Source: Elsinoe ampelina
Lineage: Eukaryota
Length of the DNA: 64,000 nucleotides
Direction of reading: 5' to 3'
NCBI GenBank assembly: GCA_010093995.1
Contig: ML992501.1
Span: forward strand, 2,747,194 to 2,811,193
Under the pieces are notes generated by a model. That model was not told the DNA's origin and made no database searches. It was given only the letters and a program-made list of their open reading frames with translations. A program made the position numbers and the translations under genes. Shown here piece after piece: positions 19,881 through 45,191 of the stretch. Positions within the stretch are counted from its first letter, which is position 1; each line of letters opens with the position of its first letter.

Positions 19881-20137
19881 ATGAGCAATACCGCGTGGTC
19901 ATCTAGGTTGGTCAGGACTAGTAAAAGTGCAATCCCGCCGCGGGTGGTTGATTTGGGAGAAGAAGTATAATAATATAGAATGGCTCCAATAATTGATTTC
20001 ACAGAGTATGACTCGACTTGGAATTCCAGAAGTGTTCCATAATCATCAACATGTGAAGGTCACATGCTCTGAGAAGTCACAACGCGTCGCATCTCCGACA
20101 CTTTCCTTTCCCGCACCTCGAAGTTACATAAAACCCG

Positions 20138-21127: not shown

Positions 21128-21459
21128 TCTTTGATGAGCAACGGGGGCGGAGAAATGCCTGATGGGACAGCACACGTCGGTATGTTGCTTACAGTATTTC
21201 ATAAACGCTTCAATTGTTTGCCACCAATACTGCAAATCTAATGCATGCATGTCTCTGATCTCGCTCACCGCCTGGTAGTTTCTCTCATGCTTCTGTGTGC
21301 TGGCGTTTGTCCCACTAAGCTCTCGTTTGTCTACCCCTCTTGACGACAGACCATTCAAAATCAGATCTTTTCCCACAAACATCCTCTCTCTACTCATCTC
21401 TTGAACTTGCGAAGTCTCTTCATCACTCTATACTCTTCTTCACCGGCCCAAATTACACG

Positions 21460-22481
21460 ATGGACGAAGAGATCATCTGTCCCGATGGGGACCTCATCCT
21501 CACTGTCGGTACATCCGCGAAGAAAACCCATCGCTTCCTTGTGAGTGCGACCGCACTGAAACTTGCTTCACCTTACTTCAAATCACTGCTGTCCGGCAAA
21601 TGGAAGGAAGGTCATGGCACGCAGGGCATCCACCTCAAGGAAAAAGTCGACAGTATCCGTATGATGCTCTTCTGTATTCATCACCAGTATGACAAGATCG
21701 GCTTCGCACAAGACGATGCCCATCAGATCCACATACTGGTCATGTTTGCGGACAAGTACCAGTGTCAAGGCTGCGTCGCGAACGTGGTCTCCGAAGCTTG
21801 CTGGAGGCTTATGAAGAGGAATGCCAACGACGGAAAGGAAAGCAACAAACCGACACAAGCATTGGACTGGATCAGGATTCTAGGCGCGGCACATCTTCTC
21901 AATCTGGCTCCCGTGTTCGCAGAGGCATCGAGATTGCTGGTTGAGTACTTCCCTTATGACTTCCAGATGCTGTCGCAGCTGCAGCGTACACTACCAGACT
22001 TCATCACATGTAAGTCGGCAAAGGATGAACATGAAAGCAAGCAACTGCTGACCAGAAAGTGTCCCTCGAGAAATCCCGCACTCGTATCAGAAGCGCCTAT
22101 CACGAATACTTGGTTCGCGCCATCGATGTCTCCTGCGACGACCAGAGCCATGAATACCAACGAGATCTACGTCAGCACCTCGGTGAGAATACGGGATGGG
22201 TCACGACGTGGACTGTGAACGAATTGAAGGAAGAGAGGGCAACAATCATCAGTGATATCCAAGACGGGACCATCGTTTTCGGAAAGTGTGATACTTGTGG
22301 CGGAGACCACTTCCCAAGCAACCTGGTCTTCGACGACGGTGTGGCAGAAGTGGAAGGATGGAAGGGCTTGTGCTTGAGGTGTTGCGTGGCCAGGAGGTCC
22401 GATCCTTTCGACTGCAAAGGCGATTGTGATCACGACCGATGGCCTTTGCTGGTCTGTGATGGCGATTCGGCGCTTGGATGA
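21460..22481 (+). CDS. BTB/POZ-domain protein 7 with Cys-rich C-terminus; exons 21460-22009, 22060-22481 (~323 aa)
   Basis: PDGDLIL..FLVSATALKLASPYFKSLLSGKWKEG..ADKYQC; intron 22010-22059 GTAAGT..CTGAC..AAG. Confidence 0.9.
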
Positions 22482-24109: not shown

Positions 24110-25588
24110 GCTAAAGAACTACGTACTATAATTAGTTAATTATCTCTATATCTACTAATTTAAGCTTTACGTAAAGGTATACTCTATAGCGCGCCTTACT
24201 AATAACTACTTTAAGACCCCTTAGCCTCGAGGCTACTCTAGTATAACTCTTCGACTTAGTATAAGGAGGCTAGTAATACTATTACCTTCTTCTTTAAGAA
24301 GCTATTTATACCTCTTTATTAACCCTAACTACTTATAAGCCTTATCTATAGCTAGTACTATTAACTATCCTTATATATCTTATAATATAAATAGCCTCTC
24401 TAATCTTGCTAGTTAAGCTATATAATTGCTTAACTATAACGCTATATACTCTAGCTAGTGTATAACTACTTTACTAATACTAAGCAAGTTAAGAGTATAC
24501 TAGTTAGTAGAGGTAGAGAAGGTTACTTCTACTTTAGTATAGGTAGAGGTAGTACCTTTAGTAGTAGATATTAAGTAGCGTAAGATAGAAGTATAATTAG
24601 GCATTACTATTAGTAAGAGTAAGTACTATAATAGGAAGGTATATAAAGAGCTAGCTAAATTATTATATAGTTAATTACTTATATAGGCTAAGCTTAAGGC
24701 TAAAGAGATAGTAGAGTACTCTCTAAAGCTAGAGGATATAAACTTAGTAGCCTTATATACAAAATTAAGAAAGAACTAGAGCTATAAGCTTATAGTAGAT
24801 AAGTAATTAAATATTAATAAGCTAGTACTTAATCTAGAGCGCTAGTTAGAAGAAGGCTATAATAAGCTTAATATAGATTTATAGTATACCTTCTTAAAGC
24901 TAGAGTAGCTAATAACTCTATTAGTAACTTTATAAGTACCTCCTTAGCCTCTACTAGCTTTATAAAGTATAAGGCTAAGGCTTACTATACTAGTAAGCCT
25001 TCCTCTATAGCTAGAGACAATATCTACTATATCTACCTTTGTACTAAGAGGTAAGGTTAAAGAGCTTAATATTAGCTAGAGTAGTTAGTAGAGTATAACT
25101 ATAAGCTAGTAGTTAAATTTGTTATCTATAATAAGTAATTAAGAGTCTTCTTTTAAGTACTAGTAGTACGTTAGTAACTAGTGCTCTAACTATAAGTGTC
25201 TTTACTAGGTTAATAGGCATAAAGAGTACTATCTAATTAATAGTCTAATCTAGCTTATATAGATAGCTATAGCTTAAGCTAGTAAGTGTACTATATTAGA
25301 CCCTTCGACTTATAGCTCTCTAGTGCTTAAATTAAGCAAATTAAAGACTAATAGGACTATTACTAAGAAGAAGTAGCCTTACCTCTCTCTACTTAGTAGT
25401 AGTAGTAGAGTACTATTAACCTTACTAGTAACTATATAGGTATATAATATAAATATATAGAGTGTACTATCTCCTCTTTAGCCTTACACTAGTGTAGTAA
25501 CTACTCCTTTATCTTTACTAATGTACTTATAATTTAACGCTACTAAAGTGTTATTTAACTTTTTTAAGTATCTAAAGTAGAAGCTAGC
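24110..25588. mobile_element. Unclassified RIP-degenerate repeat hosting the Gypsy A insertions (probably continues at 44424-44988 and 51257-51620)
   Basis: RIP composition and no match to other elements in the window; linked to the other segments by TSDs. Confidence 0.45.
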
Positions 25589-25791
25589 TAATTACGACTA
25601 GTAAGATAAGAAGTTAATTACGTTTATTTATTAAGATATTAAGACTTAGAAGAAGAAGAAGAAAGCTAGTATATAAAGTATATATAATATTAAGAGCAAA
25701 GTAGCTAGAAGCCTAAGCTACGATACTAAGATTACGTAACTAATCTAAACTAGATCCTAACTAAATCTAGTTTGTAATCTATCTTATATTA
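25589..25791 (-). repeat. 3' LTR of Gypsy A1
   Basis: 203 bp, TAATA..TAATTA (RIP-altered TG..CA), preceded on - strand by PPT AAGAGGGGAAGTAG. Confidence 0.92.
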
Positions 25792-26370
25792 CTACTTCCC
25801 CTCTTAAACGCGTTTACTCTTAAACGCTATTATATATTATCTATTAATCTATCTCGGCCTTAACTTATTTATATAAGAGTCTAGATAGTTACGTAGCATG
25901 TTAGCTACTTCTTTAAGATTGTTAATTAGCTACTAGGTAAGATTCTTTAGATAGCCTTTCTAGCTTATATAAGTAACTAGCTTCCCTTATAGTATACGTA
26001 TATTAATTATATTATCTACCTCGTATTTCTCTTTACTATTAACTTCTACCGAAGGTAGTTTATTAAAGGCTTAGCCTAGTAGAGAGTTATTTAGGTACTT
26101 AGTAAGAAGGTTAGTATAGAATACTAAGTAGATCCTTTATAGCGTAGCTAGTAGATTAAGCTTATATACTAGCGGTAATTATTTCTTAAGGATCTTATAG
26201 AGACTAATATGCTTTAGTAGTAGCTTTAGATTACTCTATAGCTAGAGGTTCTTTGTCGATAGCTAAACTAAATCGCCTACCTTAAACTCTATTAGCTAGT
26301 AGTACTTATTAGCTTATTCTACTATCTATAACTAGGTAATAGCGAGGTTAGCCTTAGTAATAGCTAGTGC

Positions 26371-26685
26371 NNNNNNNNNNNNNNNNNNNNNNNNNNNNNN
26401 NNNNNNNNNNNNNNNNNNNNNNNNNNNNNNNNNNNNNNNNNNNNNNNNNNNNNNNNNNNNNNNNNNNNNNNNNNNNNNNNNNNNNNNNNNNNNNNNNNNN
26501 NNNNNNNNNNNNNNNNNNNNNNNNNNNNNNNNNNNNNNNNNNNNNNNNNNNNNNNNNNNNNNNNNNNNNNNNNNNNNNNNNNNNNNNNNNNNNNNNNNNN
26601 NNNNNNNNNNNNNNNNNNNNNNNNNNNNNNNNNNNNNNNNNNNNNNNNNNNNNNNNNNNNNNNNNNNNNNNNNNNNNNNNNNNNN
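26371..26685. other. Assembly gap (315 N) within the A1 integrase region
   Basis: Run of N. Confidence 1.
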
Positions 26686-28809
26686 ACGTAGAAGAATAAT
26701 AGCTTAGTAGTCTTAAACGCTAAAGTACTACCTTCTCTAGAGAAGTATAGGATTAAGTACTGTTCCTTAGATAGGTAGTCGACGACATAGAGTACTACGT
26801 TATAGCTATCTACTAGAGGTAGACTAGTAATAAAGTCTATAGTAATATATTACTATAGTCTTACCGGAATAGGCAATAGTAATAGAAGGCTAGCTAGTAA
26901 GCTATAGCGAGCCTTTAAGCGCTTATAGTTATAATAGTTAGCGACGAACCTCTTAATATTACTTTTATCTAGGGATATAGAAAGTAGACTTAATTATAGT
27001 AGCTATTTTAGTAGCTCCTTTATATATATAATTCTTTAATATATAGACTTCTTAAATAACCTTTACGGCTATAGAGAAAGGCACTATTAACTAGCTAGTA
27101 GTATATAGTATTTCTTTCTTAATTATAACATTAGTTAACGGCAACTATTTCCTCTTTAGAAAGGCTTCTATTATATAGTAGATGCCTTAAGCTAACTCGA
27201 ACTTAGTGTCTTATAAGTTAGCCTTAGCTACCTTATTAAAAAGGGGTAAAGGCTCTTCTATAGTCGAAATAGGTGCTATATAGATGCCTAGTTCGATAGC
27301 TAAAATAGGCACTAATATAGAGGGCGAAATAGGAGGTAAACTAGGAGGTAAAATAGGTAATAAACTAGATAGCGAACTAGTTCGCGAACTAGATACTAAA
27401 CTAGATCTTAGTTCGGCTTAGATTAGTAATTTAGTTCGGATACGACCTAGATTTAGTTCGTCGATAATGTACTAATCTAGTACCTTATATAGTAGTAGTG
27501 TCTAGTATAGATTAGAGTTTTCTTTTAAACGTAGTATATCTCTATTCCTTCTTATAAGTGCGTCGGCCTTACTATTAGTAGCGCTAGGCCTATATATAAT
27601 CTTAAAGTTAAACTACACAAGGTAGAGAGCCTAGCACACTTAGTAGCGTAATAGCTTCTAAGTCTTTATAAAGTGTATTAAGGATTAGTAGTTAGTAAGA
27701 ACGTAGATAGCCTTATTAGATTAAGTACTTATAAGCTTAGAGGCCTACTCCTTAAAGGCTTAGACGATAGCTAGTAGTTCCTTATTATAGATAGTATAGT
27801 TATATTTAGCTTTATTTATAGATTTACTAAAAAAGGTAATAGGCTAAAGAATATTAAACTTATTATATTACGATAGAATTCTAGCGGTAGTAGTATCGGA
27901 GGTGTCTATCTTAAGGACTATCTATTTTGAGTAATTAAAGTATATAAGAGTAGGCGCGCTTATAATAGTATACTTTATATAATTAAATATAGTAGTATAC
28001 TTATTGTTCTATAGTATAGCGTCCTTCTTAAGTAGATTATTTAGTAGCTTAGCGATAGTACTAAATCCCTTAATAAAGTAGTAATAGTAGCTATAGAAAC
28101 TAATAAAGCTTCTTACCTAAGTAGTATTACTAGAGGCTAGCTATTTCTACGCCTATATAGCTTCTACCTTCTTAGGATCTATCTTAACTCTATCTCGGCT
28201 AATAATAATACTAAGATACTTTACTTCTATTAGGTAGAACTTACTCTTTTTAATATTAGTATTTAGGTCTAATTTATAGAGCTACTAGAGTACTAGCTTA
28301 ATATACTTAGTATACTCTCTATAAGTGCTATTAGTATAAATAAGAATATTATTAAGATAGATTAATATAAAGTACTCTAGTATATTAATAAAGTTATAAT
28401 TTATAAATCTCTACTATACTATAGAGGCATTAGTAAAACTAAATAGCATTACTAACTACTTAAAGTTACTTATATATATAAAGAACATAGTAAGATCTTT
28501 ACTAGAGTAGTCGTAGAGTTAGGAATAACCTACCTAGGGTAGAGTTAGGTAGACTCTACTTAGCACGCTAGGTAGGGTAGAGTTAGGGTATATTAGCGTA
28601 GGGTAGAGTTAGGGGTAGGTAGTAACTTATTAGGAAGCCTCTTAACTCTACCTACTACTAACCTACCTCTATAATTGTTAGGTCTTATATAAGCAGCTAT
28701 TACTTAGCCTAAATTTTGCTATTATATATATAATTTGTAATTTATTTAGAATAGAAATAGCACTAATTATAGTCTCTAATTATAGTATTCTATACATTTA
28801 ATTGTTGTA

Positions 28810-31468
28810 TTTTAATGTTATTCTATATCCTCCTAGATAATCTTATACGCTTTACTAGAGGCTTATAGTTGTTATTGTTACTATCTTCCTTATAGTTGCT
28901 TATATTAAATATACTTTCTTAAGTAGGTAAGTTAAATAAGTTATCTACCTCGTCTAGTGCCTTATCTATATAGCTACTATCGATAGGATTACTACTTAAT
29001 AGAGATAGTCTAGTTATAAGCTTTATAATTACAAGCCGCTAGATTATTTATATAGAGAGTTAGTGTCTTCGATTACTAATAATATTCTTTGCTATATTAA
29101 ACATGCGTTCGATACTAACGCTAGCGATTAGTATAGTAAGAACATCTCGAGCAACTTTAGTAAGCTATAGGAAGTCTTTCTCGTTGTTCTTCTACTAATT
29201 AAGCACTTTAAATCCTAGTATACTCCGGACTAGAGGGATATTAAGGTAGTCCTTACCCTCTTAATAAGTAGTTTAAGAACTCTCCTATTAATCCTAGATT
29301 GCTAAGCTAACGTTAGACTAGAAGCTAAAGCTTATCTAGGGAGAGGTAAGCTATATAGATAACCGAGGTTGACGGAACTAATTATCTTTGTCTTTAAGTA
29401 GAGTTATAATACTTAGGGTCTTAGGTAGACTATCTAGGGAAGGTAGTTTACTATTATAGCAACTAAGGTAGTTAAGAAATTACTTACAATACTTAGCCTT
29501 ATTAGATTTCTCCTAGGTGTTGTTCTATGATATAATTAGCTTACTATAAGAATATATTTATAAGCTACAAACCTTATAGGGGGTTAGCTTTTATATAGAG
29601 TCTAAGACTATACTACAATTAAAGAGGTACTCTCTCTCGTTATTAGTACAATTATAGTACTTTAATAATTTATCTCGACTATACTCCGCTACAAGTCTAA
29701 CTACTTTAGGCTAAGGCTTATTATTATTCCTCTCCTTGTCTATAGCGCTATCCTCTATCTTATCGAGGAAGTTAAATAGACAATTATACATTAACTAGAT
29801 ATATGTAATTAGTAGGCGGCTAATAGTACTTAACTAAGTAGTTACTACCTTAAAGTTCTTAAGCATCTTTGTTACTAGCTTAAGGTGTAACTACTCTATA
29901 CTATTAAGCTAAAGACGTTTAAGATCCCTATAATCCGGATTACTAGTATTAGTACTAACTAAGTCAGGTCCTATACTAGTAGAACTCTTTATTATAATCT
30001 CCTATTTAAGCTATTTGTCGATAAATAGTCTAAGCTTAAGACTACGCTTGTATATATTAAAGGTTAAGTTCTACTACGTCTTAATGTCTTAAATAATAGC
30101 CTTACGCTCTCGAGGTATTATAGCTTATTAAAGGGTTATAAACCTCTTAAAGCGTTAAGGTAATTAATTAATAGTAATATAGGTTATATAGAGCTAGAAA
30201 TTAATTAGACTATAATTAAAAACTATAATTAAAATACTAACCTTACGAAGTAAGTTTAGCACTAAAAGTTTAGTAGAGATCTTTCTTAAGTACTGCCTTT
30301 TAAGCCTAGTAGCTTGTTTATTCTCCTTAGTAGTCTTAAGGTTAAGGTGCTTAATAATGTTCTATATAACAAGATTAATAATATGTGTAAGGCACGGAAT
30401 AGTGTTTTCTTATGCACTCTATGTAATACCTACCTGCCTAAGAAGCCTTTATACTATCTTACGTAATGTACGGTTGTTACTTGCATTGTTAGCGGTAATA
30501 GCGAGGAGTCTATCCTAGAGATTATAGTGCCGGAGTGTCCGTACAAGTTTAGTAGCTATATTATAGCCTATGTATTAACCTCGAAGTAGTACTATATCTA
30601 ACAATTGTTCCTAGAGCTACTATTAGTTATTAATATAATAAGCTTTAATTATAATAAAGCCTAAATGATTGTTTATAGACTAGCTATTAAGGGCAATTAA
30701 GACCTTTATTGTCTTATTAAGATCTTATAATAACGTTTAATAGAGGTTTTTAAATTCGTTATTAAAGAGAGTAGCGAAGTAAGTGTAGCTTAGTATAAAT
30801 ACTCCTAGGTGTAGGAACTATATAAACCGTTAGAAGGATAGTTACTCGATAGTACGAAATGACTAATTATAGTCTACTACTATTCGAACAAGCTCTAAGT
30901 AGAATTAAGTAATTAAATACAAGAGAACATTTTTCTAATTAATTACTAGACAACTTCGAAGCTATATAAGTGCTTAGTCTACTAGATTATAGGCCAATTT
31001 CGTAACCTTAGTATAGGTCTTTATATCCCTATAATTGCTTATTATATTTATACCTTACTTTAATAGTAATAGGTAAGTAAGTGTATTACTACACTATAAG
31101 TAGTAAACAAATAGACGTCTATTAGATACCTATATAGCTTCTCTAAAGTATGCCTATACTAATCTAGTTCTTAGTGTTAAGTTCTAGTTTAGTAGGCTAT
31201 ACTCCTTAGAGAAGCTATAGCAAGATACCTATAGTATTAAGTTCTACTACTATAGAAAGCTTTAAAGATCTACTTATTCCTTAGCAAATATCAAAGAATT
31301 AAGCATTAGACACTTAATAAGGTACTATAGTATAGGCTAACTACCTCTATTACGTTGTTATATAGTAAAGTAATAACTAGCTAGATCTTAGGGGACGGGG
31401 ACTACTATAATTAGTAGAGTTAATAGAAGACGTAATTATAGATTAATTAGATTATCGAAATCCGCTAT
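28810..31468 (-). pseudogene. hAT transposase of element C (boundaries approximate)
   Basis: RIP-altered IAL(D)S(W)S ~30690, LAITA(D)NASNN ~30490, IPCLTHIINL ~30390, and dimerisation domain FP.L.KVARDVL.I.IASVSIERMFN ~29100-29200. Confidence 0.88.
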
Positions 31469-31799
31469 AGTAGAGTATAGAGGTTATATAACTTGTATTA
31501 TTAAACAGAAGTAGTATAGGTATTTATAATAATGCTACAATTTTTTAGCTAAACAAATTTAAAATGTTTAGATAAGTAATATATTTAAGTTTAGACTATT
31601 AGAAAGTCTTCTCTATAATTACTTTACGTAAGGTATTTAAAAACGCGCTAGTAGCCCCTAAGTAATTATAAACATTAATCACTAATATCGAGGAAGGATT
31701 AAGGTATTATTATATTATATTATTATAGTAAAGAAATTCGTTACTCTACCTATACTATTTCTCTAGTATAAGCTACTACCTAAAACTCTAATCCTTAAC

Positions 31800-32325
31800 T
31801 AACTACTAACTATAAACTTCTAATAGTAGCGCTTAGCAAGGCTAGAGTCCTTATAATTAATAGTAATATACTTAGCATAGATAGCGTTAAGGTTTATATC
31901 TATAAATAAGTATTAATCGAGGTTTTAACATATATTAAATAGACATATACCTTCTATGTATCTAACAATAAATACCTCTACTAATTCTTAGAGAGCTCTA
32001 AGTACATTAGCTATCTAGCGATTAACCTTAAGAGTAAGCTATATATCTTAGGATATCTTATAGATAAGGCAAGAAAAGGGAAGTTTATAGAATAACAATT
32101 AGACATTCTTCTAGTAGTAACAAATCTCGTAGAGAGTAATAGCTACCTTCTATTAGTTCTACTCTATAATTAGAAACTGTAATAAATACTACCGGGCTTA
32201 AATCTCTACTTCTTTCTAGGCTTAGCCTAGGATTATAGTGTCTTCTTTATAGTAGGTTACTTCCCTTTATAACTTCTTTCTCTAGAACTAGTAGTAGCTT
32301 AAGGATAACCTTTTTTACGTACTAT
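31800..32325 (-). pseudogene. Histone H3-like gene, copy C (RIP-mutated); introns 32189-32143 and 31950-31900
   Basis: Literal RFKPG|T, EI..Y*K, KLPFS.LI, AL*E..E.FIV.Y.E|D.NLNAI.AK..TI..KD..LAKR; reversing C>T/G>A gives [54 protein letters not shown]. Confidence 0.88.
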
Positions 32326-32666
32326 AGTAAAGTAAGAGGTTGTTTATATATAGCTAAGAAGTTAAAGTTTATATATAAAATTTTAGTATATATAAAATAG
32401 TAAAAAGAAGAGGCTAGAGTAAGGAATATAAAACCTATTATTAGATACGCTATTTACTATTAATAATAGAGAATAATAGGATAATAGTAAATAACTTATA
32501 TAACAATAGCTTTCTTATTCCTTACCCTAGCTTCCTCTTTTATTATTTTATACATTTATAAATTATAAATTTCTAACTTTAACTTTCCCTTTATACCTTT
32601 ACCCCTTTTACTTACCTTATGTATAATTCATATACTACAAATACTCTTTTTATTACCTTTAATTAA

Positions 32667-33935
32667 ATATCTATACCTATAAAAGACATTAAGATAGAGT
32701 AGAAAGAGTAGGTAGTAATTAAGTAGGAAGAAGATAGTAGAGAGAATATTCTAAGGGAATTATTAGGGGTATTAATTATAGTTTCTTATTATATATAGTT
32801 ACTAACAATACTAGGGATTTAATTCTAAGTAGTAGAAAATTAAACACTAAATCTCTTAGCATAGCGCTAGTTAATCTAGAAAGGGCTATAAGACTAGATT
32901 TGTCGCTAGACACTCTAGACCTCTAAGTTAAAGCGCTTATACTATTAAGTAAAGAGATTATACTTCTTAGCGCACATATAAGAAGTAAGCCCTCTATACT
33001 ACTTAAGTAGTAGATCGTAAAGCTATTAGTACTTTATGTAACAAGATTAAGAGAGAGAATAGGTAGGATTAGCTCTCTACTAAAGAGTAGAATATTAGAA
33101 TTCATAATACTATCGAAGATATAGAGGAGAAACGCTTTAATAAATAGAGGAGCGGTAAGTCTATTATTATAGTATACTATTATAGTAGTACTAATCGTTA
33201 TAGGCGAGTAGCTTAAATTTATATTTATATAGACCTATAAGAAATAGACTAGCATTAGAAAGACTCTATAAAAGCAAGAGTATAATAAGATTATTAAGCA
33301 TATCTAAGATAATATAGCAGTAAATTAGTAAGGCAAACAACAGCTAATATAAGCCTATATATATATCTATAGTACTAGTAGTATTATTAAGAAGCTATAG
33401 TGCAAAATTTACTAGGATAGCTATATAAGCCTTGTTACTAACGACACTAATAATAAGTAGGCATATAAGATTTTTTTTAAGTAGCTTAAAGAGCTCCCTT
33501 CTATAGAATTAGTAGTGTTATAGGATCCTAACTAGTAGTAAGTTTATTATAGTCTTTAATTATAGTATATTCTAACAATTGTATAGGCTAGTTGTTCCTC
33601 TACCTCCTAAGTATAAATACATCTCCGAGCTTAAACTCTATAGTACTAGGCTATACTATAAAGGAGATAATAATAATAAGTGTAAGGAGAAAATTAAGAA
33701 GAATAAGAATAAGATCGAAAGGATGTTAGATAAGGAAGCTAGTAATAACGAGGATTATTATCTAGGTATTAAAGTTAAAGATAAGTCGGATAGTAAGGAT
33801 AAGAATAATAAGGTTATAGAGCACTCCGAGCTTAAGACTAATAGTAATAACAATAATAAGGATAAGAATAAGAATAACAATATAAAGGATAAGAATGCTA
33901 CTAAGGTTAAGGATAAGGAGATATCTAATGCCTAG
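32667..33935 (+). pseudogene. Unknown cargo gene X, copy C, with acidic (RIP-reversed D/E-rich) C-terminal tail; start approximate
   Basis: Intron-containing; homologous to 37399-38719; ORF 33579..33935 is its N/K/D-rich last exon. Confidence 0.72.
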
Positions 33936-36249
33936 ATATAATAGGGATTAAAAGTATAATTCTATAAGTAGTAGTATTAGAGAATATAGTTTATAATTAG
34001 AATCTATTATTAGTAATTATACTCTGTTATTTTATGTATTACTAATAACCTATAGAGTGTAAAATTCATAACTCTACCCTAACCTACCCCTTAGCTTAGC
34101 TAACCCTAACTCTACCTACTCTAGCGGGGGTTAGCTAAGCCTAGAGGTAGGTTAGGGTAGAGGTAAGTTACTTAGAGAAAATTCTAACTCTACTCTACTC
34201 TACGACCACTCTAATCTTTACTATTAATAGAGTTATAGAAGTAGTAGAAGGCTTAATAGATGTTAATCTTACTAAACTATTTAGCTTTACTTACGCGTAT
34301 AAGTATTTCTTCAATAAAGAGTAAAGAATAGATATCTTACTTAGTTACCTTATTAAGGCTATAGTAGTTAATATAGAGATAGAGTTCTCTACCTAGCTTA
34401 TAAATAAAGAGAATAGGTAAGAAATAGCTAGTAGAACTTAATATAATAAAGCCTTTATTAAGATATTCTTAGATAAATTATTCTACTATATTAAGTTCTT
34501 CTAGTAATAGGTAGTATAAAAGCTCTATATATAGTAGCTTAGTACTATCTTTAAGTATAATATAGTTATTAAAATCCAGCCGATACTAAGGAAGTATATT
34601 AGATTATTCTTTAGAGAAGATATTAGTAAACTTCTATAGCTCCTCTAGGAGAACTACTATAGGATCTAGTTCTAGCTTAGAAACTATCTAGTAGTAGTCT
34701 TTAATATTCTTTACTAAGATTATAAATACCTTATTCTTTTAGTATTTAGCTACTAATATAAAGGTAGCTACGCTAATAAAGGTAATAGTTAGCTTTTCCT
34801 ATTTAGCATTACTTATATAGGTAAGTAAGTAGAAGAACTTATATATTAATTAAGTACTATAGGAGATTAGCTTAAACTCTCCCTAATTTAGCTTAAAGTT
34901 TAACCTAAGAGCTAGTAGCTAATATAGTCTAGTTCGTCCTAACTTAGTAGCTAAGCTAGAACTTAGTTTACAAGTTAGACTAGAACTAAACTAGTTCTAA
35001 ACTAGAGTAGTAGCTTTACTAAGCTAGATTTCTAGATCTAAGCTAGGCTTAGATCTAGATTCTAGTCTTTTAATTAGCTATAGTAGCTCCTACTTAACGA
35101 CAACTAGTAAAAACTCTTCTTTATACGTAACTTAGCTATACTTATAGTTAATAGTAGCTCTATTAGCTTTAAGCTAGCCAAGGCTAAGAATAATATTAAA
35201 ACGGCTAATATCTATAATATAGAAGATAGTAAAAGTATTTAGCTTACTAGAGATAGTAGTAGTAAGGGAAATGCTATAAGTAACTTACTCTATTAGAATA
35301 CTATTATAAGTCTAAAGCTAAATAGAGCTAGCTAACGCTATAGGGCAGCTAAAGCTCTTTAGCTTATTAAGGACGTTATAATTAACTATAGCGCTAATAA
35401 GTGCACTAGTATTAATAAAGGCTTAGAGCGTAATAGTATAAGAGTAGTTATAAGAGTTATAAATAGTAATAGGAGTTATAATAGTAGGGATATAGTAGCT
35501 AATAACGCTATTTAGTAACTATATATCTCTAGATCTATCTCGAATTACTCTTATTTCGCTAGAGAATAGAACTTATTCTCTAGCTACTTATTTCTCTAGC
35601 TAGAGTAGCTAGTAGACTTATAGTCTATTTTAGAGTTAAACTAAGGCTAAACTAGATCTAGTTTATAGGCCGAACTAGTGTCGACCTAGTTACTTAATTC
35701 GGCTAAGCAATTCTAAAGCTACTATATCTCCTCTATAGCGCTAATATATATAGGGTATATAGTAGTATAAGTAGCCTTCTCTAAGGCGCTAGCTATATAC
35801 TTAGTAGAGATATGTCTAGGCTTACTACATATATAATAGGTAAGTGCTAGAGCCGGACGGAAAGGCTTAGGGTAGTTTTTAGGTTAGGTTAGGTACTAGA
35901 ATTGCTACCTATAACCTAACCTATAGCGATACTAGTACCTAAAGCTTAGCAACTATAACCCTCTAAGCCTTAGGTAGTGTTACTTAGCCTTAGGTATATA
36001 GTTAGTTATAGTGTTGCTTATAACACTACCTAATAGTACCTATAGGTGCCTAAGAGTCGAGGAGTAGATATATATCTTAAGAACTTAAGATTTAGAAATT
36101 AAAATTTAAAAGTTAAAGGTTATAATTATGTTTATTAATTACGCTAATCTTACTAGCACCTCCTATCTACTCTTATAGCCTACGCCTTACTTGCTTATCT
36201 ACCTTTATAGAATAATTGTCCTTACTATAAACTGTCTAATTGTCCTAGT

Positions 36250-36779
36250 TATATGTATTAAACTTTATATAATAGCAACAAGTAAGCTATAAATCTTTCT
36301 AGTTAATAGTAACTTACTTAGCATAAATACAATTAAGGTTTATATCTAAGAATATTAGTATCTATAATAGTATTAAATTTAAATAATAGATACCTTCTAT
36401 ATACCTAATAATAAATGCCTCTATTACTTCCTAAAGTGCTTTAAGAGCTTTAGATTAGATATAAAAGCTTTTGTCTTAACAAATATAGCCTCTAATAATC
36501 TTATAGATAAGGTAGCTAAAGGAGAGCTTATAGTAGAGAAGTTTAGTTAACTTCTAGTAGCGACAAATCTCTTAGAGGGCAATAGCTATATAGTATTAGT
36601 AATATAATATAATAATCAATTGTAATAATTATACTACTAGCCTTAAACTTGTTCTTCTTTCTAGAAGTAATAGTTGTCTTATAAGGTTACTTAGTAGTAG
36701 AAGCCTTAGGTCTACTAGACGACTTGCCCTTATAACTACAACTATAGGTTAGTACTATAGTACCTCTCTTAGGAGGCAT
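36250..36779 (-). pseudogene. Histone H3-like gene, copy D (RIP-mutated); introns 36634-36586 and 36393-36346
   Basis: ATG CCT CCT AAG start; literal KFKAS|TIAL*EICRY*KLTKLL..KLSFS.LI.KI..*SKALKAL*E..EAFII.Y.E|D.NLNCI.AK*VTIN*KDL*L, an H3 histone fold after RIP reversal. Confidence 0.9.
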
Positions 36780-37398
36780 AGTTACTATTACTACTAAGGA
36801 TAGAGTCTTAGGAGGTGCTTATAATATAAAGTAATTTTACAGTAGTAAGAGTAAGGTAGTAGAGGGCGTAGAAAGTAACAAGGTAGATATAGTAGTAGTA
36901 TAAAGAAAGAGAAGTAGAAAGAGAAGAGGTAAAAGAAGTAGAAGAAGAGAAATACGTAATAATTTAGTAGCTAGTAATAGCACGGCTAACAATAGGAATG
37001 TAATATTATAATAGAAATATAAAATTAGTAAATTAGAAATGTATAGTGTATAGAATACTTGCTTATTATAATATTATTTATAATAGTAAGGCATATAATA
37101 TTAGATTTGTTCGAACGCTTAGAAGAAGAGGAATCTAGATATTATAGAGTACTAACAATAAGTACGTAATAATCTAGCGTAATAATACAATACTAATTTA
37201 GTATACTATAATTCTTAAAAACCTTATATTTTATATTTTATATTCTACTCTAGCTACCTTATTGTTACTTTATATATAGTAGGAAGCTATATTACTCTCC
37301 TCTATTCTCCTTCTTCTTCTATTAACTTTCTTTCTTCTTGTCTCTACTACCCTTTTATTTCTACGCTCTTAAGTTTAACTTTTATATCTTATTTTACT

Positions 37399-38719
37399 AT
37401 AGTAACCTCTCTAGATACTCCTATAGCTAATATACCTTCTAATACCTCTCCTAGTAGCTCTCCTAAGATTAAGAATAAGTTTAATAAGTTCGAAACTATA
37501 ATAGAGATAATTATTATAGCGTTTTATTACGAGTATTAAGCTAATAGGTATAGGGCTTTAGGTCTAAGTAGGCTAAAATCGAATACTAGATCCTTTAGCG
37601 TAGTTAAGGCAGCAAGGCACATCACAGTTGTCTAACTAGTTTTAAAGCAGGTTTAAGTAAGCCTTTAAAGTAGAATATTTAGAACATTATACACTAAGAT
37701 AAAGATACTTAATAGTCGGCTAAGGTTAAGGCACTTAAAGCAGCTAGAGATGCCAATTATAGCATAAAGAGAAATTTGCTTAAGAAGTTTAATATAAATA
37801 CTTAAGTCTAGAACCTTAGTAAAGAAGCAAAGGTAGAACTCCTTATAGAAAAGATTAAGGAAATAAAGTAGCGCCGTTTTAACGCCTAGTAAAGCTATAT
37901 AATTATACTACTATATTATTACGTTTAACACTAATAGATTATAGATAAATAGCTATCTAGTAAGTTTAGAAAAGTCTATGTTAAATAGTAGCGTATTAGA
38001 AAATTTGCTATACGTTAAGAGTATATAGAAGTTCTTATAAAGGCAAAGGTAGCTTATACTACTAAGTCTAGCGAGGAGAATAATATGTTAAGAGTAGCTA
38101 AGTAGATATATAGTTCTAGCGGAATTCTCGAGAAGCTTAAGTATAAGATCTATATAGCTAGCGCTACTAAGCTTACTATTAATAAAGGTACTAACGAGAA
38201 TGCTAAGAAAAAGTACTTAAAGTTTGTCTAGAAACTTAGTAAGGAGAGTAGGCTTACTACTATCTCCGATCCTAACTAGTAGTAAGTTCTCTATTATTAT
38301 TACGTATTATTATTACGTTAGTATACTAATAAATAGCAGGGCTTATAATTCTATGCCTCTAGCTAAGTATTAACTACTCGAGCTAATCTATCTTATAGAT
38401 AAAGGTAAATATATAAAGCCTAACAACAATAACAAGTGTAAAGAAGTATATAAGCTAGACTATAACTCTAAGATCGAGAAACTAGCTAATAAGTACAAGA
38501 TAGATAAGTAGTATACGAAGTTTAAGGGGTTTTCCTCTAATAAGAATAAGATTATTAATAAGAGAGAGAGAGTTAAAGTAGAGAGTTCTTTAGAAGGTAG
38601 AGATAAGGAGGAGAATAATAATAAGAATAATAATAAGAATAATAATAAGAATAATAATAAGGAAGGGGATAAGGAAATAGTCGATACTAAGGAAGATAAA
38701 TTTACTAGATTTAACTAGT
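37399..38719 (+). pseudogene. Unknown cargo gene X, copy D, with acidic tail; boundaries approximate
   Basis: Shares F.SKQ.KIEHQI.Q.S..T.F.A..S.PL.Q..I..RD, RF(D).W and DPNW|gtaagt with copy C; AATAATAAG run at ~38610-38660 reverses to D/E. Confidence 0.72.
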
Positions 38720-39793
38720 GGATTTTCTATACTATAATCAACTACTAAGTAGTTTAATCTATAGTATAGTCCGGCCCTTTTATAGATTTAAGTTTTATAA
38801 CAAGATCTCTTCCTATATAGCTACTATTGTTATTTATGCTTCTAATTGTTACCTCTAATAATAGTAAATTATCTATATTATTACTTCTAACGATAGATTT
38901 CTATTACTATTGTTGCTATAAATAATAGGAAGTACTAGATATATACGCTATCTCGTTCCTATTTATTCTTCTTTCTAAAACCTCTCTTCCTTATTATTAT
39001 AGCTTCTCGCGTATAACTCTATTCTAACCTAGAAGATCTAATCCCCTACTAGCCTTATGCTATAACTCGTAGTAACTGCGCTAGGCTACTATACTTACGT
39101 TAGTATAAAGCTTATATCTACCGTATAACTAAGTAATTTATCGATAGCGAGGAAAGGTAGACTACTTATATCTATAATAATAATAGAGGCTCTAAACTTC
39201 GCTATAAAGCCTATCGCTCGTATAATACCCCTTGTAACTTTATTAGTATTCCTAATCTAATACTACTATATTCTCTAATAAGTATTAGTATAACAGCTCC
39301 TAGACTAATAATATTTTTAACCTTATCGACATATAGTATACACTTAATTGTTACTATCTTAATCTTATCCGAGATTAGATTATAATCTTTAATATACGCC
39401 GTAGTATTAAACGCTAGTAGAACGAGCTAGATAATTCTAAATCCTAAGGATCTTAATAGTTCTAATTCTTCTAGTAACTAGTTTAGTAGTATAATGTAAA
39501 TAAAGCGTTAGCGGGCTAATAGCTTTAGTAGGTTTTTCATGACATAGATATGCTTTTAATTTTAAAAATTTTCTACCCTACCCTAACATAGATATGCCTT
39601 TAATTTTAATTATGTTACCTATTCCTTAGCCCCTATATAATATAAGTCTAGCTTATAGAAATTGATATACCTCTTGCTTTAAAGTTTCTATAGTATAGTA
39701 TAGGATTTATTATTACGTATTATAAATACGTTAATAAACATTCTATAACAAGTTATCTACCTTTATTAAATAACATAATCTACACTAATCGAC

Positions 39794-42460
39794 ATGTCTA
39801 AAGCTTCTAACTTTAAGTCGGTACTCGACCTATAACTTAGAGATACTATATATTTCTCTCTAGCTATTCTAGTAGAATTATATAGCTTTATAATCTCCGC
39901 TTAGAATATTAGACGTAATAGTAGAATATGACAATTATAACTCCTTAAATGCTTGCCTTTTTAACCTAGTAAGAGATCTAAGGATTAACCTCTATAATAA
40001 GCCTAGAAAGACTAGTAGAGTCGAACAATTATAGTATCTATATATAGAGAGAGCATAAAAAATATACTAAATTAGAATTCTAAAGCACGTTCTAGAGGTC
40101 TATAGGCAAATATTATAGAAGCTACTAAGATTTACAATAGAGAACTACGAGTTATTTATAATAGGTATAGTAATATACTTACTTATCCTACTTACTATTA
40201 CACTAGTAATAAAGCAATAGAGAGACATCTTAAGTTCTAGAAATACACTATAGTTATTAAGTACCGCTACGAGTAAAGCCCTGCCTAAAAAGCCCTTAAG
40301 TAATTATAATAGTATATAAAGAGCATTTACTAAATTGTCTCTCTATTCTCTACTAACATCTTCTACTATAAGCTTGTTCGCGTAGTTACTAACTATAACT
40401 AGTCTTTCTACATAGTTAAGTATCTTACCTTTAGCTAATTCCTCCGCTTCCTCTAACCTAATATTACTATACCTAGCCGGACTCTTTTTTAAGCGACACT
40501 AGTAGCATAATTTAAGAAGTTACAAAAATCGCTACTCTCTAACCTCGGTAAGAACACTAAGCTTTTAATAGCGTTAGATAGATAGTCTACTAATAACTAC
40601 TTAGAGTTTATTATAATTAAAAGCTATTTTATTAATAACTAATAGCAATTATAAGAGTAGCTCCTAGAAATAACACTCCTTCGAGGTTACTATACTAGTA
40701 AAGCTATAGTAAATAAGGTAATATAGGTACTAAAAGATATATTAGTTAAGCAATAACTACTCGTAGTTATAGCAGATAATATATTAAACAATAGAATACT
40801 CCGAGAGTCTCTCGAAAGAAGCCTAGGTATACTAGATATTAAGTAAAATACAAAGGAGAATACAATTCTACGCCTAGTATATATTATTAATCTTGTTATA
40901 TAGGACATTATTAAGCATCTAAAACTTAAGACAAGCAAAGAGATTAACATAGTAGAGAGGTTATAAAACTACTATATCTAGGATATTATAATATTAGTCT
41001 CTATCCCGAATTTACTATAGAAGGTATATAACATTTATTATATTGTTTTATTACGTCCTAATGTTAGTAAGCTCTACATAATATATATTATAATTAATAG
41101 TTCTCTATAATAGTTTAAACGATTTATAGACCTCTAGAAGCATCTACTACCTAAGAAGAGATACTAAGTTATACGTGATATTAAGACACGCTAGAATTTA
41201 ACATATAATATATATAAGCGAGTATTAAAGCTTAAACCTTTTATTAAGGATTAGCTTAAGAATAAGACTACGCTCTAAGTACCGAGGACTTCTTCTAAGG
41301 TATTAATATCTAAACTACTCTCTAATGTTAATAACTACGACCTTACTAAGTTATTACTTAATCTAAATAAGTAGTAGCATCTTAAATCTGTTATAGTAAT
41401 ACTAGAGAACTTTAAGAAAGCAACAATATAGCTAAGTACTAGTAGCCGACCTCTTCTCTAGTATATATAGACAATGTATAATACACTCTTTAACTTCTTA
41501 GATAAAATTAAAGAGGGCCTAATTAGCACTAAGGATTATAACAATCTACCTACATAGCTAGCTACTATATAAAAGGTAGTAGTAAAGGGACAAGAGAAGC
41601 TTAAGAAATACTATACGTAAACTAAGGATAGGAAGGATATACTCTATAACTATATAACAATTCTTAACCCCTCTAAGAAGCTTATAGCATATAATGTAAA
41701 TACCTATAGTCTTTCTAGTAAGTAGTAGCTAATAATACTTAGGACATAGAGACTTAGGAACCTTACTATAAAGACTACTATTATAAGGAGTTCTTATAGT
41801 ACCTTCGTTAGTATAATAAGATAGACCCCTTAATTGCTTTACTAGCCTCTACCCCTAAGCTATTATATTACTAGCAATAAGACTAGTTTAACCGACTAAA
41901 ACAAAAGGAGCAAAGTTACGCTCTATTACTATAAAGCGATAGTCTATACTTCTTATTTGTTCCCTCGAAGCGTACTATAGTTAAAGAAGGTAAGGACTAC
42001 CTTACAACACTACCGGTCTATATTTAGAAACTTAATGTCTTATAGTAGTAGAAAGAGAAGAAGGAAGAATATCTATTACTATTATATATAGCAAAAGATA
42101 TTCTAGTAATCCTAATTATAGAGGTTAGAGTTAAGTAAGTGTTTAACATTACAAAGGATATTATTAGTGCGTAGAGGTATAAATTAGTAGCCTAAACTAT
42201 TTAGTAGCTTATAATGTTAAAGTATAAGCTTAAAGTAGCCTCGCTATTAGGACGGATTAATATAGAACTAGAGATAGAGGATAAGGCTACTAATGCTAAT
42301 AATTTACTTAAATTGTTATTAAGGACTAATATAAATTAACTAGACGATATTACTATAGTACTAAGCTATAGTAATAATAACTACTCTAAATTAGAGAGAG
42401 AGAGAGCGTAGAGAGGTTAATAGTATTCTAGTAGAAAGCGTCGGCGGATTTACTAGCTAG
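39794..42460 (+). pseudogene. hAT transposase of element D (boundaries approximate)
   Basis: V(T)ADN..NN ~40770, I(PC)L(AH)IINLV ~40870, RDIKTR(W)N(S)TY ~41180, (WW)KEK..Y..L..IAKDIL.I.I.EV.V(ER)VFN ~42050-42150. Confidence 0.88.
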
Positions 42461-44220
42461 ATTGTATTTGTACTTCTAGTATAATTTATATATTTAACTT
42501 ACTACCTCCCCTTACATAATAAAGTAGCGTAATAAAGTTAGGCCTAAAAATTTGTAAGGTATAGTAACGCGCTAAGCTATAGAGTAAGCGCTTTAACTAC
42601 TAACCTATTAGGTACTATTAGGTAGGTACTAGGTTAGGTACCCCCCCCCCTAAGAGCGACACTATAACTATATACTAACTCTACCTACCTTAGTATAGTA
42701 CCTAACCTAGAGTAACCTCTCTCTACTAAGCTTTTGTACCTAACCCCTACCTAATATAGTACTATATCTACCTAAAAACTACCCTAGAAAGGCTATAGAG
42801 TACCTCTAGTAATAGAGTAAAAGGTAGATAGAGCTATAGGTATAGAGGTAAAATAACATATATAAGTAAGTATAGTAGTAGTATAGCTTATAGCTAGTAT
42901 AGAACGTAAAGCCTAAGTACGCTTAGTAATAAGGTTATTCTATTAGATGTTATAGTTAGTAGCGTAGGCCTTAGTAATAAAGATAGTAAGGTTGTTAGTA
43001 TTATAGTTAACTAGAGTATTACGTAGCTTATTAGATATCTTCTAATAGATCTAGTATAGCTACTTCTCTTTAGCGATCTTAGTATAAAGGGTATACTTAT
43101 TAAACTTACTAATAAAGAAGTTAAATATACTATTATACTAGAAGAGGTTAGCGAACTAAGTATATATAGTAGCTCTATAGTTAGGATTCTCGAAGCGCTA
43201 GGCTAGGAGAGTAAGGACCTCTTTAACGCTAATAACGTTGTTACTAGCTAAGTCTATAATAAGGGTATAAGCTTCTCTAGAGAGGCGTAAGTATAGATAG
43301 GTAAACTAGGTATCTCTTATAGAGAAATAATCTATATTAGTGCATATCTTATTCCTTATCTAGTGCTTAAAGACCTTAAACTACTCTAGTATACCTATGC
43401 TAAAGATAGTAGGGTCTAGTATCTTTTCTAATAAGGTAAAGCTACGTATAGAAAGGGCTAGTATACTATACTCTATCTCGTTTCTTAGTTAGTTTACCTT
43501 AGCCTTAAGCTCTTAGATTTTGTCTAGGTAGTATATAGCTTAGGTAGTAACGCTATTAGTATAGGACTAAGATATATCTAGTTCGGATTAGAGGTTACCG
43601 AGCTAGGCCTAAGTAGTATCTAACTTATAGTAATAGTAGAAAGTATTAGTATAAGTGTCTTTTACCTATATAGTTTACTTATTATAGAAGGACTTAATAT
43701 ATTTAAATACGTCTCTTAGTGCCTATATACTATACTTTTCCTATAGCTTCTTAAGAAGTATAGTGTTAGAAAGAGCAAAAAGATTATAGTAAAGAGAGTA
43801 GATAAAGGTATTATTATTATTAGAAATAGGTTAAGGTAGCTTACTTTAGTAGTGCTCTTTATTGCTATAGTTAGATCGAGCTATACTTAGTATAGTTAGT
43901 TATAAATATAATAGTAGAAAAAGTTAATATATAATAAAAAGAGTATTTAAAAATTTAACTAGTAGCTTACTTTCTTCTTAAGTTATTTATAACTTAACTT
44001 ATTACCTTCTTCTTATATTTATAGTTTATAGTATTAAATTATATAGTAGTAGCAAGGATCTATTATAGTATACGTAGGAACTATAATTATAATAGCTTCT
44101 TCTTTAATTCTTTAATTCTTTATAAGTAGTAGTTATTAGTAGTTATATAAGTAGTAGGATAACTAGATAGTTTAATAGCTCTATTACTTAGTTATAGTCT
44201 TTTTTAAAGTCTTAATATAG

Positions 44221-44423
44221 TAATTACAACTAGTAAGATAAGAGGTTAATTATATCTATTCGTTAAGATATTAAGACTTAGAAGAAGAAGAAGAAAGCTA
44301 GTATATAAAGCATATATAATATCGAGAGTAAAGTAGCTAGAAGCCTAGGCTATAATACTAAGATTACATAACTAATCTAAACTAGATCCTAACTGAATCT
44401 AGTTTGTAATTTATCTCGTATTA
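44221..44423 (-). repeat. 5' LTR of Gypsy A1
   Basis: 203-bp match to the other A LTRs. Confidence 0.92.
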
Positions 44424-44988
44424 CTTATAATTAGTTTAGGTACTATAGATATAATATAGAGTAAATAGAGTAAATAGTATAAAGATAGAAGTAAGGTTAA
44501 GCTTACGAAAAAAGCGCTAAGTCCTTATTAAAAACTCTATACTACTAGTACTATAAGCCTATACTACTCCGCTAGCTTATCTAAGCTAGATTATACTATC
44601 TAGTTCGGTAGCTAAGTTAGATTATACTAACTTATACGCCGAGATAGAGCGCTATCTAGCTTAGCTACTAAGATAGAGTATTTTAATATTAGTATAAGAG
44701 TAGTAAATTAGGCCTATCTCGGCTACTAAGCTAGATAGCCTATAGCTATGTTAAGTTAAACTCTTTAGCTTTATCCTCTTCGCTTAAAGGCTTAAACTCT
44801 AAAGGCTTCTACTACTTCTTAAACCTTAATATCTCTCTCTTAATCCTTATAAGTAACTTCTCTTTTAAACTCTATAACTTAGTCTATCTCTTCTTTAACA
44901 CCTTATAAATACTATTAATGTTAAATTTAGTATCTCTTAGGTAGTAGAAGGCTTAATTAAGCGCTATACGCTTACTCTTAAAGGCTAG

Positions 44989-45191
44989 TAATACGAGATA
45001 GATTACAAACTAGATTTAGTTAAGATCTAGTTTAGATTAGTTATGTAATCTTAGTATTATAGCCTAGACTTCTAGCTACTTTACCTTCGATATTACGTGT
45101 GCTTTATATACTAGCTTTCTTCTTCTTCTTCTAAGTCTTAATATCTTAATAAATAGACATAATTAACTTCTTATCTTACTAGTTGTAATTA
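44989..45191 (+). repeat. 5' LTR of Gypsy A2
   Basis: 203 bp TAATACGAGA..GTAATTA. Confidence 0.92.

What the first reader, a model, noticed from the sequence alone, without database searches (positions are those of the whole stretch)
31800..38719. Two different hAT transposons carry the same head-to-head cassette: histone H3 variant plus unknown acidic-tailed partner
Seen: elements C and D have different TIRs, and the transposase sits on opposite sides of the cargo (C: transposase(-), H3L(-), X(+); D: H3L(-), X(+), transposase(+)). Both keep an H3-like gene and gene X diverging from a short shared spacer, with introns at equivalent positions, and the copies differ by much more than RIP transitions. 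Known: fungal H3/H4 genes are often divergent pairs and histone chaperones often have acidic tails; from memory, hAT-associated H3-like genes were reported in Pyrenophora tritici-repentis, so the capture alone may not be new. Inference: this is a maintained two-gene chromatin module (variant histone plus dedicated chaperone or effector) that lets the transposon alter chromatin, for example to evade silencing or choose target sites.
Basis: partly seen in the sequence, partly recalled or inferred. Interest (0 to 1): 0.92.

Follow-up and report, generated by a model that had tools for sequence, protein, structure and literature searches.

The report
Dead hAT transposons carrying histone-H3 gene pair
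Two mutation-killed fungal hAT transposons each carry, besides their transposase, a histone H3-like gene and an unknown partner gene, which extends a known case of transposons carrying histone genes.

Summary
Window 28503-34213 (C) and 35868-42786 (D) are two separate hAT insertions. Each has its own 16-17 bp terminal inverted repeats and a perfect 8-bp target duplication, and both sit in one Ty3/Gypsy element. Each holds a transposase, an H3-like gene with two introns, and an orphan gene X read away from H3L across a palindromic spacer. The H3L/X block is inverted relative to the transposase between C and D. All genes are destroyed by RIP (GC 29%, dozens of stops).

X was a real gene. Its exons align between C and D (z=42) while the spacer does not. 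Transversions are in excess at third codon positions (p=0.003-0.016). One intact outside homologue exists (P0001), and its Q/W/R residues sit where C and D have stops.

hAT elements carrying H3-like genes are already published (Manning 2013; Dhillon 2019). What may be new is a conserved partner gene, the block inversion and the retained introns. No evidence bears on a chaperone or chromatin role. X has no Pfam or PDB match, its acidic tail is only inferred by reversing RIP, and the genomic context of P0001 could not be fetched.

Verdict: a new variant of a known kind, of moderate interest.

The parts
28503..34213 (.). hAT element C (5,711 bp). TIRs at 28503-28519 and 34197-34213; 8-bp TSD ATCTTTAC at 28495-28502 and 34214-34221.
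28850..31350 (-). C transposase pseudogene (approximate ends). The hAT dimerisation domain lies at ~29027-29254.
   Evidence: PF05699, E 2e-10; phmmer against the D transposase, iE 7e-92; 42% identity to D
31820..32325 (-). C histone H3-like pseudogene. Exon 2 is 31949-32146. Two intron-like segments. The start codon now reads ATA.
32373..32570 (.). Palindromic H3L-X spacer of C. The main arms, 32403-32462 and 32482-32541, are 60 nt long and 83% complementary.
32650..33935 (+). C gene X pseudogene (start approximate). An in-frame stretch runs 32813-33538. The last exon, 33588-33932, has an N/K-rich tail.
34214..35867 (-). Middle piece of the interrupted Ty3/Gypsy-like element R, lying between C and D.
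   Evidence: (I1, 96% complementary to 46617-48270)
35868..42786 (.). hAT element D (6,919 bp). Perfect 16-bp TIRs at 35868-35883 and 42771-42786; TSD GAAAGGCT at 35860-35867 and 42787-42794.
36260..36779 (-). D histone H3-like pseudogene. ATG at 36779; exon 2 is 36392-36589. Two intron-like segments.
   Evidence: (PF00125, E 6e-5)
36780..37424 (.). D spacer with nested inverted repeats: 36824-36961 against 37246-37364, and 37049-37078 against 37181-37210.
37425..38718 (+). D gene X pseudogene (start approximate). An in-frame stretch runs 37554-38282. The last exon is 38341-38715.
   Evidence: P0001 hits 37728-38246, iE 3e-9
39900..42390 (+). D transposase pseudogene (approximate ends). The dimerisation domain lies at ~41992-42225. 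The 1.2 kb at 38719-39900 is unassigned.

Best explanation
C and D are two RIP-killed members of two diverged sister lineages of an autonomous fungal hAT transposon. They inserted independently into one Ty3/Gypsy element.

The common ancestor of the two lineages already carried three genes between its TIRs:
- the transposase;
- an intron-containing histone H3 variant (H3L);
- an orphan, all-helical gene X of roughly 380 aa, with four exons.
H3L and X were read away from each other across a mirror-symmetric spacer.

Shown here:
- Each element is a single TIR/TSD unit that holds all three genes.
- The three genes diverged together.
- X's exons stayed conserved, with a coding signature, while non-coding parts diverged beyond alignment.
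- The H3L/X block is inverted relative to the transposase in one lineage.
- Both layouts transposed.

Inferred, not shown: while the element was alive, the pair served the element as an accessory chromatin module. In this reading H3L enters nucleosomes and X acts with it as an escort or regulator through a D/E-rich tail. In this genome the module is dead.
For: Borders and target duplications. In one search, the strict scan for an internal TIR plus TSD returns the two outer pairs as the only candidates with a hAT-like TAG terminus, a TIR matching at nucleotide level and an 8/8 TSD. One other 8/8-TSD pair (31588-33219) has non-matching TIR letters.

Homology between C and D: X z=42, H3L z=52, spacer z=2.8, each against 60 random windows. 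Local phmmer gives transposase iE 7e-92, H3L 1e-23 and X 6e-8.

Co-divergence, as transversions per site at codon positions 1/2/3:
- transposase .205/.208/.330 (p=1e-10);
- X exons 2+3 .24/.23/.34 (p=.003);
- X all exons .241/.234/.314 (p=.006);
- X position 3 against transposase position 3, p=.63.

Shared derived H3L features: a +3-residue insertion relative to H3 and the same two intron sites.

X was once an open gene. A profile of the C and D copies found one protein at E<=0.001 among 1.84 billion representatives: P0001, E 4.8e-4. Stops in C and D fall on P0001's Q/W/R residues, in 7 of 17 stop columns against 18 of 170 other columns (p=.0026) for D, and 9 of 19 against 16 of 167 (p=1.3e-4) for C. 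HMMER gives X positions no weight, so this check is independent of the hit.

RIP indices: TpA/ApT 1.8 and (CpA+TpG)/(ApC+GpT) 0.27.
Against: - H3L shows no third-position excess (.189/.144/.189 per codon position.167 pooled positions 1+2 vs .189 position 3, p=.38). Its third-position divergence is lower than the transposase's (p=.006). It may therefore have drifted, been exchanged between lineages, or be limited by codon bias.
- The test on X rests on one pair of decayed copies, and the last exon alone gives no signal (p=.38).
- The lengths of X intron 2 (49 nt in C, 56 nt in D) break the reading frame by 1-2 nt, so either the splice sites or the copies are imperfect.
- There is only one outside homologue, and its genomic context is unknown.
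- X and P0001 have no Pfam, PDB or Atlas relative.
- Nothing here bears on function, and the acidic tail is a RIP-reversal inference.
Confidence: 0.55

Rival explanations
1. Passive cargo. A hAT ancestor once picked up a stretch of host genomic DNA that held an H3 gene, its neighbour gene and their shared promoter (a transduplication). The pair merely hitch-hiked and gave the element nothing.
For: - Both published accounts treat H3L as a transduplicated host gene (PMC3538342 passages; PMC6710886 Results and Discussion).
- The retained introns fit capture of genomic DNA.
- H3L shows no coding signature between C and D.
- The block can sit in either orientation.
- All copies here are dead.
Against: - X's exons remain alignable (z=42) while the spacer does not (z=2.8).
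- X has a third-position transversion excess (p=.003-.016).
- X is as diverged as the transposase at third positions, so it was carried through the whole split of the two lineages and not lost.
Confidence: 0.3
2. Composite elements. H3L and X belong to a short non-autonomous hAT. The transposase belongs to a second hAT that nested into it independently in C and in D, which would explain why it lies on opposite sides. A 2025 preprint reports this for the 5.6-kb P. tritici-repentis element.
For: Preprint 10.1101/2025.11.13.688278 (passages) states that the 5.6-kb element of Manning 2013 is the 2.6-kb hAT-1_Ptr with a 3.3-kb hAT nested in it. D also has 1.2 kb of unassigned DNA between X and the transposase.
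Against: - The strict scan (12-nt RY-perfect TIR plus RY-perfect 8-bp TSD) recovers both outer pairs and no credible inner pair.
- The TIR-motif search finds the best matches (1-2 mismatches) at the four outer ends, plus one 2-mismatch subterminal copy at 28599. The other sites inside C or D carry 3 mismatches.
- The relaxed scan gave only noise.
- The two transposases are each other's relatives and as diverged as X.
Confidence: 0.08
3. X is not a gene. It is conserved non-coding transposon DNA, and the reading frames are illusory.
For: There are 20-25 stops in each ~243-codon stretch. No family matches. The frame breaks at intron 2.
Against: - P0001 is an open 187-aa homologue.
- Stops in C and D map onto its Q/W/R residues.
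- Transversions are in excess at third codon positions.
- Canonical intron signals lie at the same sites in both copies.
Confidence: 0.03

Closest known systems
hAT elements carrying H3-like copies in Mycosphaerellaceae (Dhillon et al. 2019, PMC6710886; I read Results, Discussion part 1 and supplement 2 part 1 of 5)
   Same: A hAT element with an 8-bp TSD and TIRs that start TAGA/TAGG. The H3-like copy lies between the TIRs. All copies are RIP-killed and sit in AT-rich blocks. One H3L form has a '16-aa insertion' at the place where I see intron 2.
   Different: - The published P. fijiensis element is ~9.5 kb with a 20-bp TIR and one or two H3L copies; ours are 5.7 and 6.9 kb with one copy each.
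- The paper reports no other domain or feature and calls H3L an intronless retrocopy.
- Here a second gene X and two H3L introns are seen.
- 0 of 10 short words from C and D occur in the published consensus file (6, 4).
- I could not load that file into an aligner.
H3L 'transduplication' hAT of Pyrenophora tritici-repentis (Manning et al. 2013, PMC3538342, passages; re-read by preprint 10.1101/2025.11.13.688278, passages)
   Same: A hAT element carries an H3-like gene that is neither canonical H3 nor CenH3. It has insertions in the tail and the fold, plus a further ORF of unknown function.
   Different: - The Ptr copies are intact and nearly identical, and ESTs exist.
- According to the preprint the element is 2.6 kb with a 6-bp TSD, and its 5.6-kb form is a nested composite.
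- Dhillon 2019 found no DNA similarity between the Ptr and the Mycosphaerellaceae elements.
- Whether the Ptr 'central ORF' is related to X could not be tested. No Ptr protein reached E<=0.001.
Divergently transcribed fungal histone gene pairs such as H3-H4 (recalled, not from a call)
   Same: Two genes lie head to head and share a short promoter region, here a palindromic one.
   Different: X is not a histone. It has no PF00125 hit, is about 380 aa long and is predicted all-helical.
Histone-variant-specific escorts with acidic stretches, such as DAXX and HJURP/Scm3 (recalled)
   Same: Only the idea is shared: a helical protein with a D/E-rich tail encoded next to an H3 variant.
   Different: There is no sequence or fold match. 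The tail is acidic only after reversing RIP. Binding was not testable.
Fungal DNA transposons that encode an epigenetic enzyme (TET/JBP; PMC12730594, search listing only)
   Same: Cut-and-paste elements that carry a chromatin- or DNA-mark-related gene beside the transposase.
   Different: The cargo differs. I did not read that paper.

Membership tests
hAT superfamily DNA transposon | 8-bp target site duplication | tested here: met
   C: ATCTTTAC 8/8. D: GAAAGGCT 8/8. Each occurs once in intact R copies.
hAT superfamily DNA transposon | Short terminal inverted repeats | tested here: met
   C: 16-17 bp with 1 transition. D: 16 bp, perfect. Both start TAG. That hAT ends typically start YAG is recalled.
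hAT superfamily DNA transposon | Transposase with the C-terminal hAT dimerisation domain (PF05699) | tested here: met
   C: E 2e-10, 40.8 bits against a cut-off of 21.4. D: E 5e-4, 20.2 bits, just under the cut-off. D is 42% identical to C over 580 aa.
hAT superfamily DNA transposon | Intact catalytic core or BED finger | tested here: inconclusive
   No other Pfam domain passed. RIP has put many stops in the frame.
Published hAT-H3L family (Dhillon 2019) | H3-like sequence between hAT TIRs, RIPped, in an AT-rich block | tested here: met
Published hAT-H3L family (Dhillon 2019) | Sequence likeness to the published consensus elements | tested here: inconclusive
   0 of 10 short words were found. 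The words can be broken by line ends, and no alignment was possible. The first bases of the consensus TIRs (TAGAG.., TAGAC..) resemble ours.
Histone H3 | Histone fold that matches H3 best | tested here: met
   All 60 listed PDB hits in each are named H3, an H3 variant or chimera, or (one row each) only 'Histone domain-containing protein' (best E 2e-8). PF00125 scores lie under the cut-off (23.7 and 15.4 against 26.4 bits).
Histone H3 | Open reading frame | tested here: not met
   Exon 2 alone (66 codons) has 5 stops in D and 6 in C.
Histone chaperone (for X) | A known chaperone domain or fold | tested here: not met
   Pfam: 0 of 4 X pieces; P0001 gave only a chance-level hit (E 0.17). PDB: 0 hits at E<=10. 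The model has pLDDT 56, so it was not fold-searched.
Histone chaperone (for X) | Binds H3L-H4 | not testable with these tools
   The window copies carry stops, and no eukaryotic H3 or H4 could be supplied to the complex tool.

The most novel reading that the evidence does not exclude
A lineage of Dothideomycete hAT transposons encodes its own two-part chromatin system: a variant histone H3 plus a dedicated orphan partner X. The two are expressed from a mirror-symmetric promoter and kept by selection for the transposon's benefit through deep divergence of the element lineages. If so, the published 'H3 transduplications' would be an accessory module of the element and not passive pseudogene cargo.
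Probability: 0.2. Interest if true: 0.8.

Novelty: new variant of a known kind. Interest (0 to 1): 0.45.

Why it matters
Transposons that carry a histone gene are rare. The fungal cases have been read as accidental capture of a housekeeping gene. A second gene that travels with H3L through the split of two element lineages, and that bears a coding signature, would shift the question from what was captured to what the pair does for the element. It also gives a concrete handle: X/P0001 can be used to look for living copies in which transposition, silencing and nucleosome content can be assayed. The retained introns also bear on the published claim that H3L came from a retrocopy. In this window itself everything is dead, so the value lies in the lead and not in a working system.

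Tried and rejected
- Whole genome: none is held.
- A 12-frame Pfam call was too large to print. I repeated it in smaller pieces.
- Word-index protein searches:
  - the X profile, 0 of 4,351 candidates;
  - P0001 against longer proteins, 0 of 1,082;
  - P0001 against proteins of similar length, only itself among 76.
- Metagenome scans: P0001, 0 of 201 stretches; the transposase alignment, 0 of 592.
- Atlas search for P0001: no usable hit by features, and structure TM scores of 0.41 or less.
- AlphaFold of P0001 with the C and D copies: pLDDT 56, pTM 0.22. I judged this too poor for a fold search and ran none.
- Sequencing runs: names are coded and no RNA holder is listed. No reads were laid.
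- Earlier findings of this scan: nothing by place, by words or by sequence.
- Low-stringency purine/pyrimidine BLAST (timed out): chance hits at 73-76% identity everywhere. Its E-values are meaningless, so I replaced it with the random-window null and the phmmer search.
- Relaxed internal TIR scan: only noise.
- Short-word look-ups in the published consensus file: 0 of 10.
- Rejected ideas:
  - One 9.5-kb element with a duplicated cassette. Each unit has its own TSD.
  - X as H4 or another histone. There is no PF00125 hit.
- Complex prediction was not attempted because the window proteins carry stops.
Full report
SETTING

The window changes at about base 24000 from gene-rich DNA (GC 50-60%) to an AT-rich block (GC about 29%). 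In the block, TpA/ApT is about 1.8 and (CpA+TpG)/(ApC+GpT) is about 0.27, against 0.5 and 1.32 in the gene-rich part. These are the marks of repeat-induced point mutation (RIP). No ORF of 50 aa or more survives in H3L or the transposases. The one ATG ORF inside the finding, 33723-33935, is the tail of X in element C. No whole genome is held for this window.

BORDERS

RIP makes only transitions, so I compared the block with itself after collapsing bases to purine/pyrimidine.

- A repeat R has two forward copies, at 44987-51266 and 58509-64000.
- R encodes RT-RNase H domains (PF17919 E 2e-17, PF17917 E 6e-11, in 1 of 3 frames). It is therefore a Ty3/Gypsy-type retroelement.
- Searches found nothing in 6 frames of its first 3.6 kb.
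- A third, inverted copy of R is cut into three pieces. Elements C and D lie between the pieces.
- Flank alignments and the raw ends give C = 28503-34213 and D = 35868-42786.
- Each element is bounded by 16-17 bp inverted repeats and a perfect 8-bp duplication of an R site that is single in the intact copies.
- A strict scan for any other TIR+TSD pair inside the elements returned the two outer pairs as the only credible ones.
- A motif search placed the best TIR matches (1-2 mismatches) at the four ends, plus one 2-mismatch subterminal copy at 28599.
- A relaxed scan gave only noise.

So these are two independent hAT insertions, and each moved as one unit with all its genes. Most of the differences are transitions: by eye, 10 of 17 positions are identical, 5 are transitions and 2 are transversions.

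GENES

Transposases:
- C, on the minus strand, carries the hAT dimerisation domain (E 2e-10).
- D, on the plus strand, carries it at E 5e-4, just under Pfam's cut-off.
- They are 42% identical over 580 codons despite RIP.

H3L:
- It matches PF00125 (E 6e-5 in D, 0.024 in C).
- All 60 PDB hits listed in each are named H3, an H3 variant or chimera, or (one row each) only 'Histone domain-containing protein' (best E 2e-8).
- Both copies carry three extra residues relative to H3 between helix 1 and helix 2.
- Both have GT...ACTAAT...TAG segments at the same two places, after KPG and after LFED.

X:
- It is read the other way from H3L, across a spacer of about 0.3 kb in C and 0.65 kb in D.
- In both elements the spacer is an imperfect palindrome.
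- X has four exons. Intron signals lie at matching sites in C and D, including an identical 21-nt stretch across the third donor site.
- Its last exon ends in an N/K-rich run. This would have been D/E-rich if the many TpA sites came from TpG by RIP. That is an inference.

A phmmer search of the six-frame window finds no further copy of any of the three genes.

IS X REAL, AND WAS IT MAINTAINED?

1. Exon conservation. X of C and X of D align with a score 42 SD above 60 random AT-rich windows, and H3L 52 SD above. The spacer scores only 2.8 SD above.

2. Codon-position test. Transversions are untouched by RIP. Counted by codon position between C and D, they give:
   - transposase .205/.208/.330;
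   - X exons 2+3 .24/.23/.34;
   - X all exons .241/.234/.314;
   - H3L .189/.144/.189.
   The third-position excess has p=1e-10 for the transposase.003 for X exons 2+3.006 for all of X and .38 for H3L. X's third-position divergence equals the transposase's (p=.63). X therefore split together with the element. H3L's third-position divergence is lower (p=.006), which remains unexplained.

3. Outside homologue. A profile of the two X copies, searched against 1.84 billion representative proteins, found one hit at E<=0.001. This is P0001, 187 aa, open, called 'hypothetical protein' by its source, and seen on two contigs of at most 6.2 kb.

4. Stop positions. Where C or D has a stop, P0001 has Q, W or R. 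These are the residues whose codons RIP turns into stops. The counts are 7 of 17 stop columns against 18 of 170 others for D, and 9 of 19 against 16 of 167 for C (p=.0026 and 1.3e-4).

Together these results show that X was a protein-coding gene under some constraint.

Weak points:
- The evidence rests on one pair of decayed copies.
- The last exon gives no signal.
- The intron 2 lengths break the frame by 1-2 nt.
- P0001's hydrophobic middle looks like an intron read through by a gene caller.

FUNCTION

X and P0001 match no Pfam family, no PDB chain and no Atlas cluster. The AlphaFold model is all-helical but has pLDDT 56, so I did not search folds with it. Nothing tests the chaperone idea. 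Binding could not be predicted, because the window proteins carry stops.

WHAT IS KNOWN

- Manning et al. [quoted passage not shown]
- A 2025 preprint (passages) says that this 5.6-kb form is a 2.6-kb element with a second hAT nested in it.
- Dhillon et al. 2019 (Results and Discussion) described RIP-killed hAT-H3L elements in six Mycosphaerellaceae. Those elements are about 9.5 kb in P. fijiensis. [quoted passage not shown]
- That insertion sits where I see intron 2.
- In the part of their C. zeae-maydis consensus that I read, GTAAGT...TAG segments stand, by eye, at both H3L sites.
- Three literature searches turned up no paper that describes a conserved partner gene of H3L. Supplements other than file 2 part 1 were not read.
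- I could not align X to the published consensus elements. That file is not a source I may type from, and 0 of 10 short words matched.

VERDICT

I rate it a new variant of a known kind, with interest 0.45.

Noticed in passing
window 25579-28502, 34214-35867, 42787-44425; 44987-51266; 58509-64000: There are three copies of a Ty3/Gypsy-type element (RT-RNase H domains). One is inverted and split by the two hAT insertions. The copy at 42787-44425 and the copy starting at 44987 lie back to back and form a large inverted repeat around ~44700.
   Followed up: partly
window 32373-32570 and 36824-37364: In both elements the H3L-X spacer is an imperfect palindrome, so each gene is preceded by a mirror copy of the same sequence. 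The spacers of C and D do not align with each other.
   Followed up: partly
window 31901-31948, 36347-36391 and the sites after KPG: H3L keeps two intron-like segments. The second equals the '16-aa insertion' of Dhillon 2019, whose paper argues for an intronless retrocopy. By eye, their C. zeae-maydis consensus shows GTAAGT...TAG at both sites.
   Followed up: partly
supplement 2 of PMC6710886, Czm_cons, about 330 nt upstream of its H3L start: By eye, a D/E-rich ORF end lies on the same strand as H3L. If this is X, the C. zeae-maydis layout would be a third arrangement, in tandem. This was not verified, and no alignment was possible.
   Followed up: no
window 38719-39900: About 1.2 kb in D between the stop of X and the transposase has no counterpart in C and no Pfam hit. 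It accounts for the size difference between the two elements.
   Followed up: no
window 230-949, 1547-2224, 17480-18094, 18676-19437, 20132-21127, 21319-22218: The gene-rich flank holds six or more paralogous ORFs with a shared N-terminal motif (..DGDV.L.....F.VSS..L...S.VF.AM..). By eye this looks like a BTB/POZ domain. No Pfam check was run.
   Followed up: no
window 26371-26685: A run of 315 N (an assembly gap) lies inside the inverted Gypsy copy.
   Followed up: no
P0001 residues ~57-78: The hydrophobic I/L/Y-rich middle of the outside homologue aligns with X intron 2 of C and D. It is probably an in-frame intron read through by a prokaryote-style gene caller. The ORF also ends where intron 3 begins.
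   Followed up: partly
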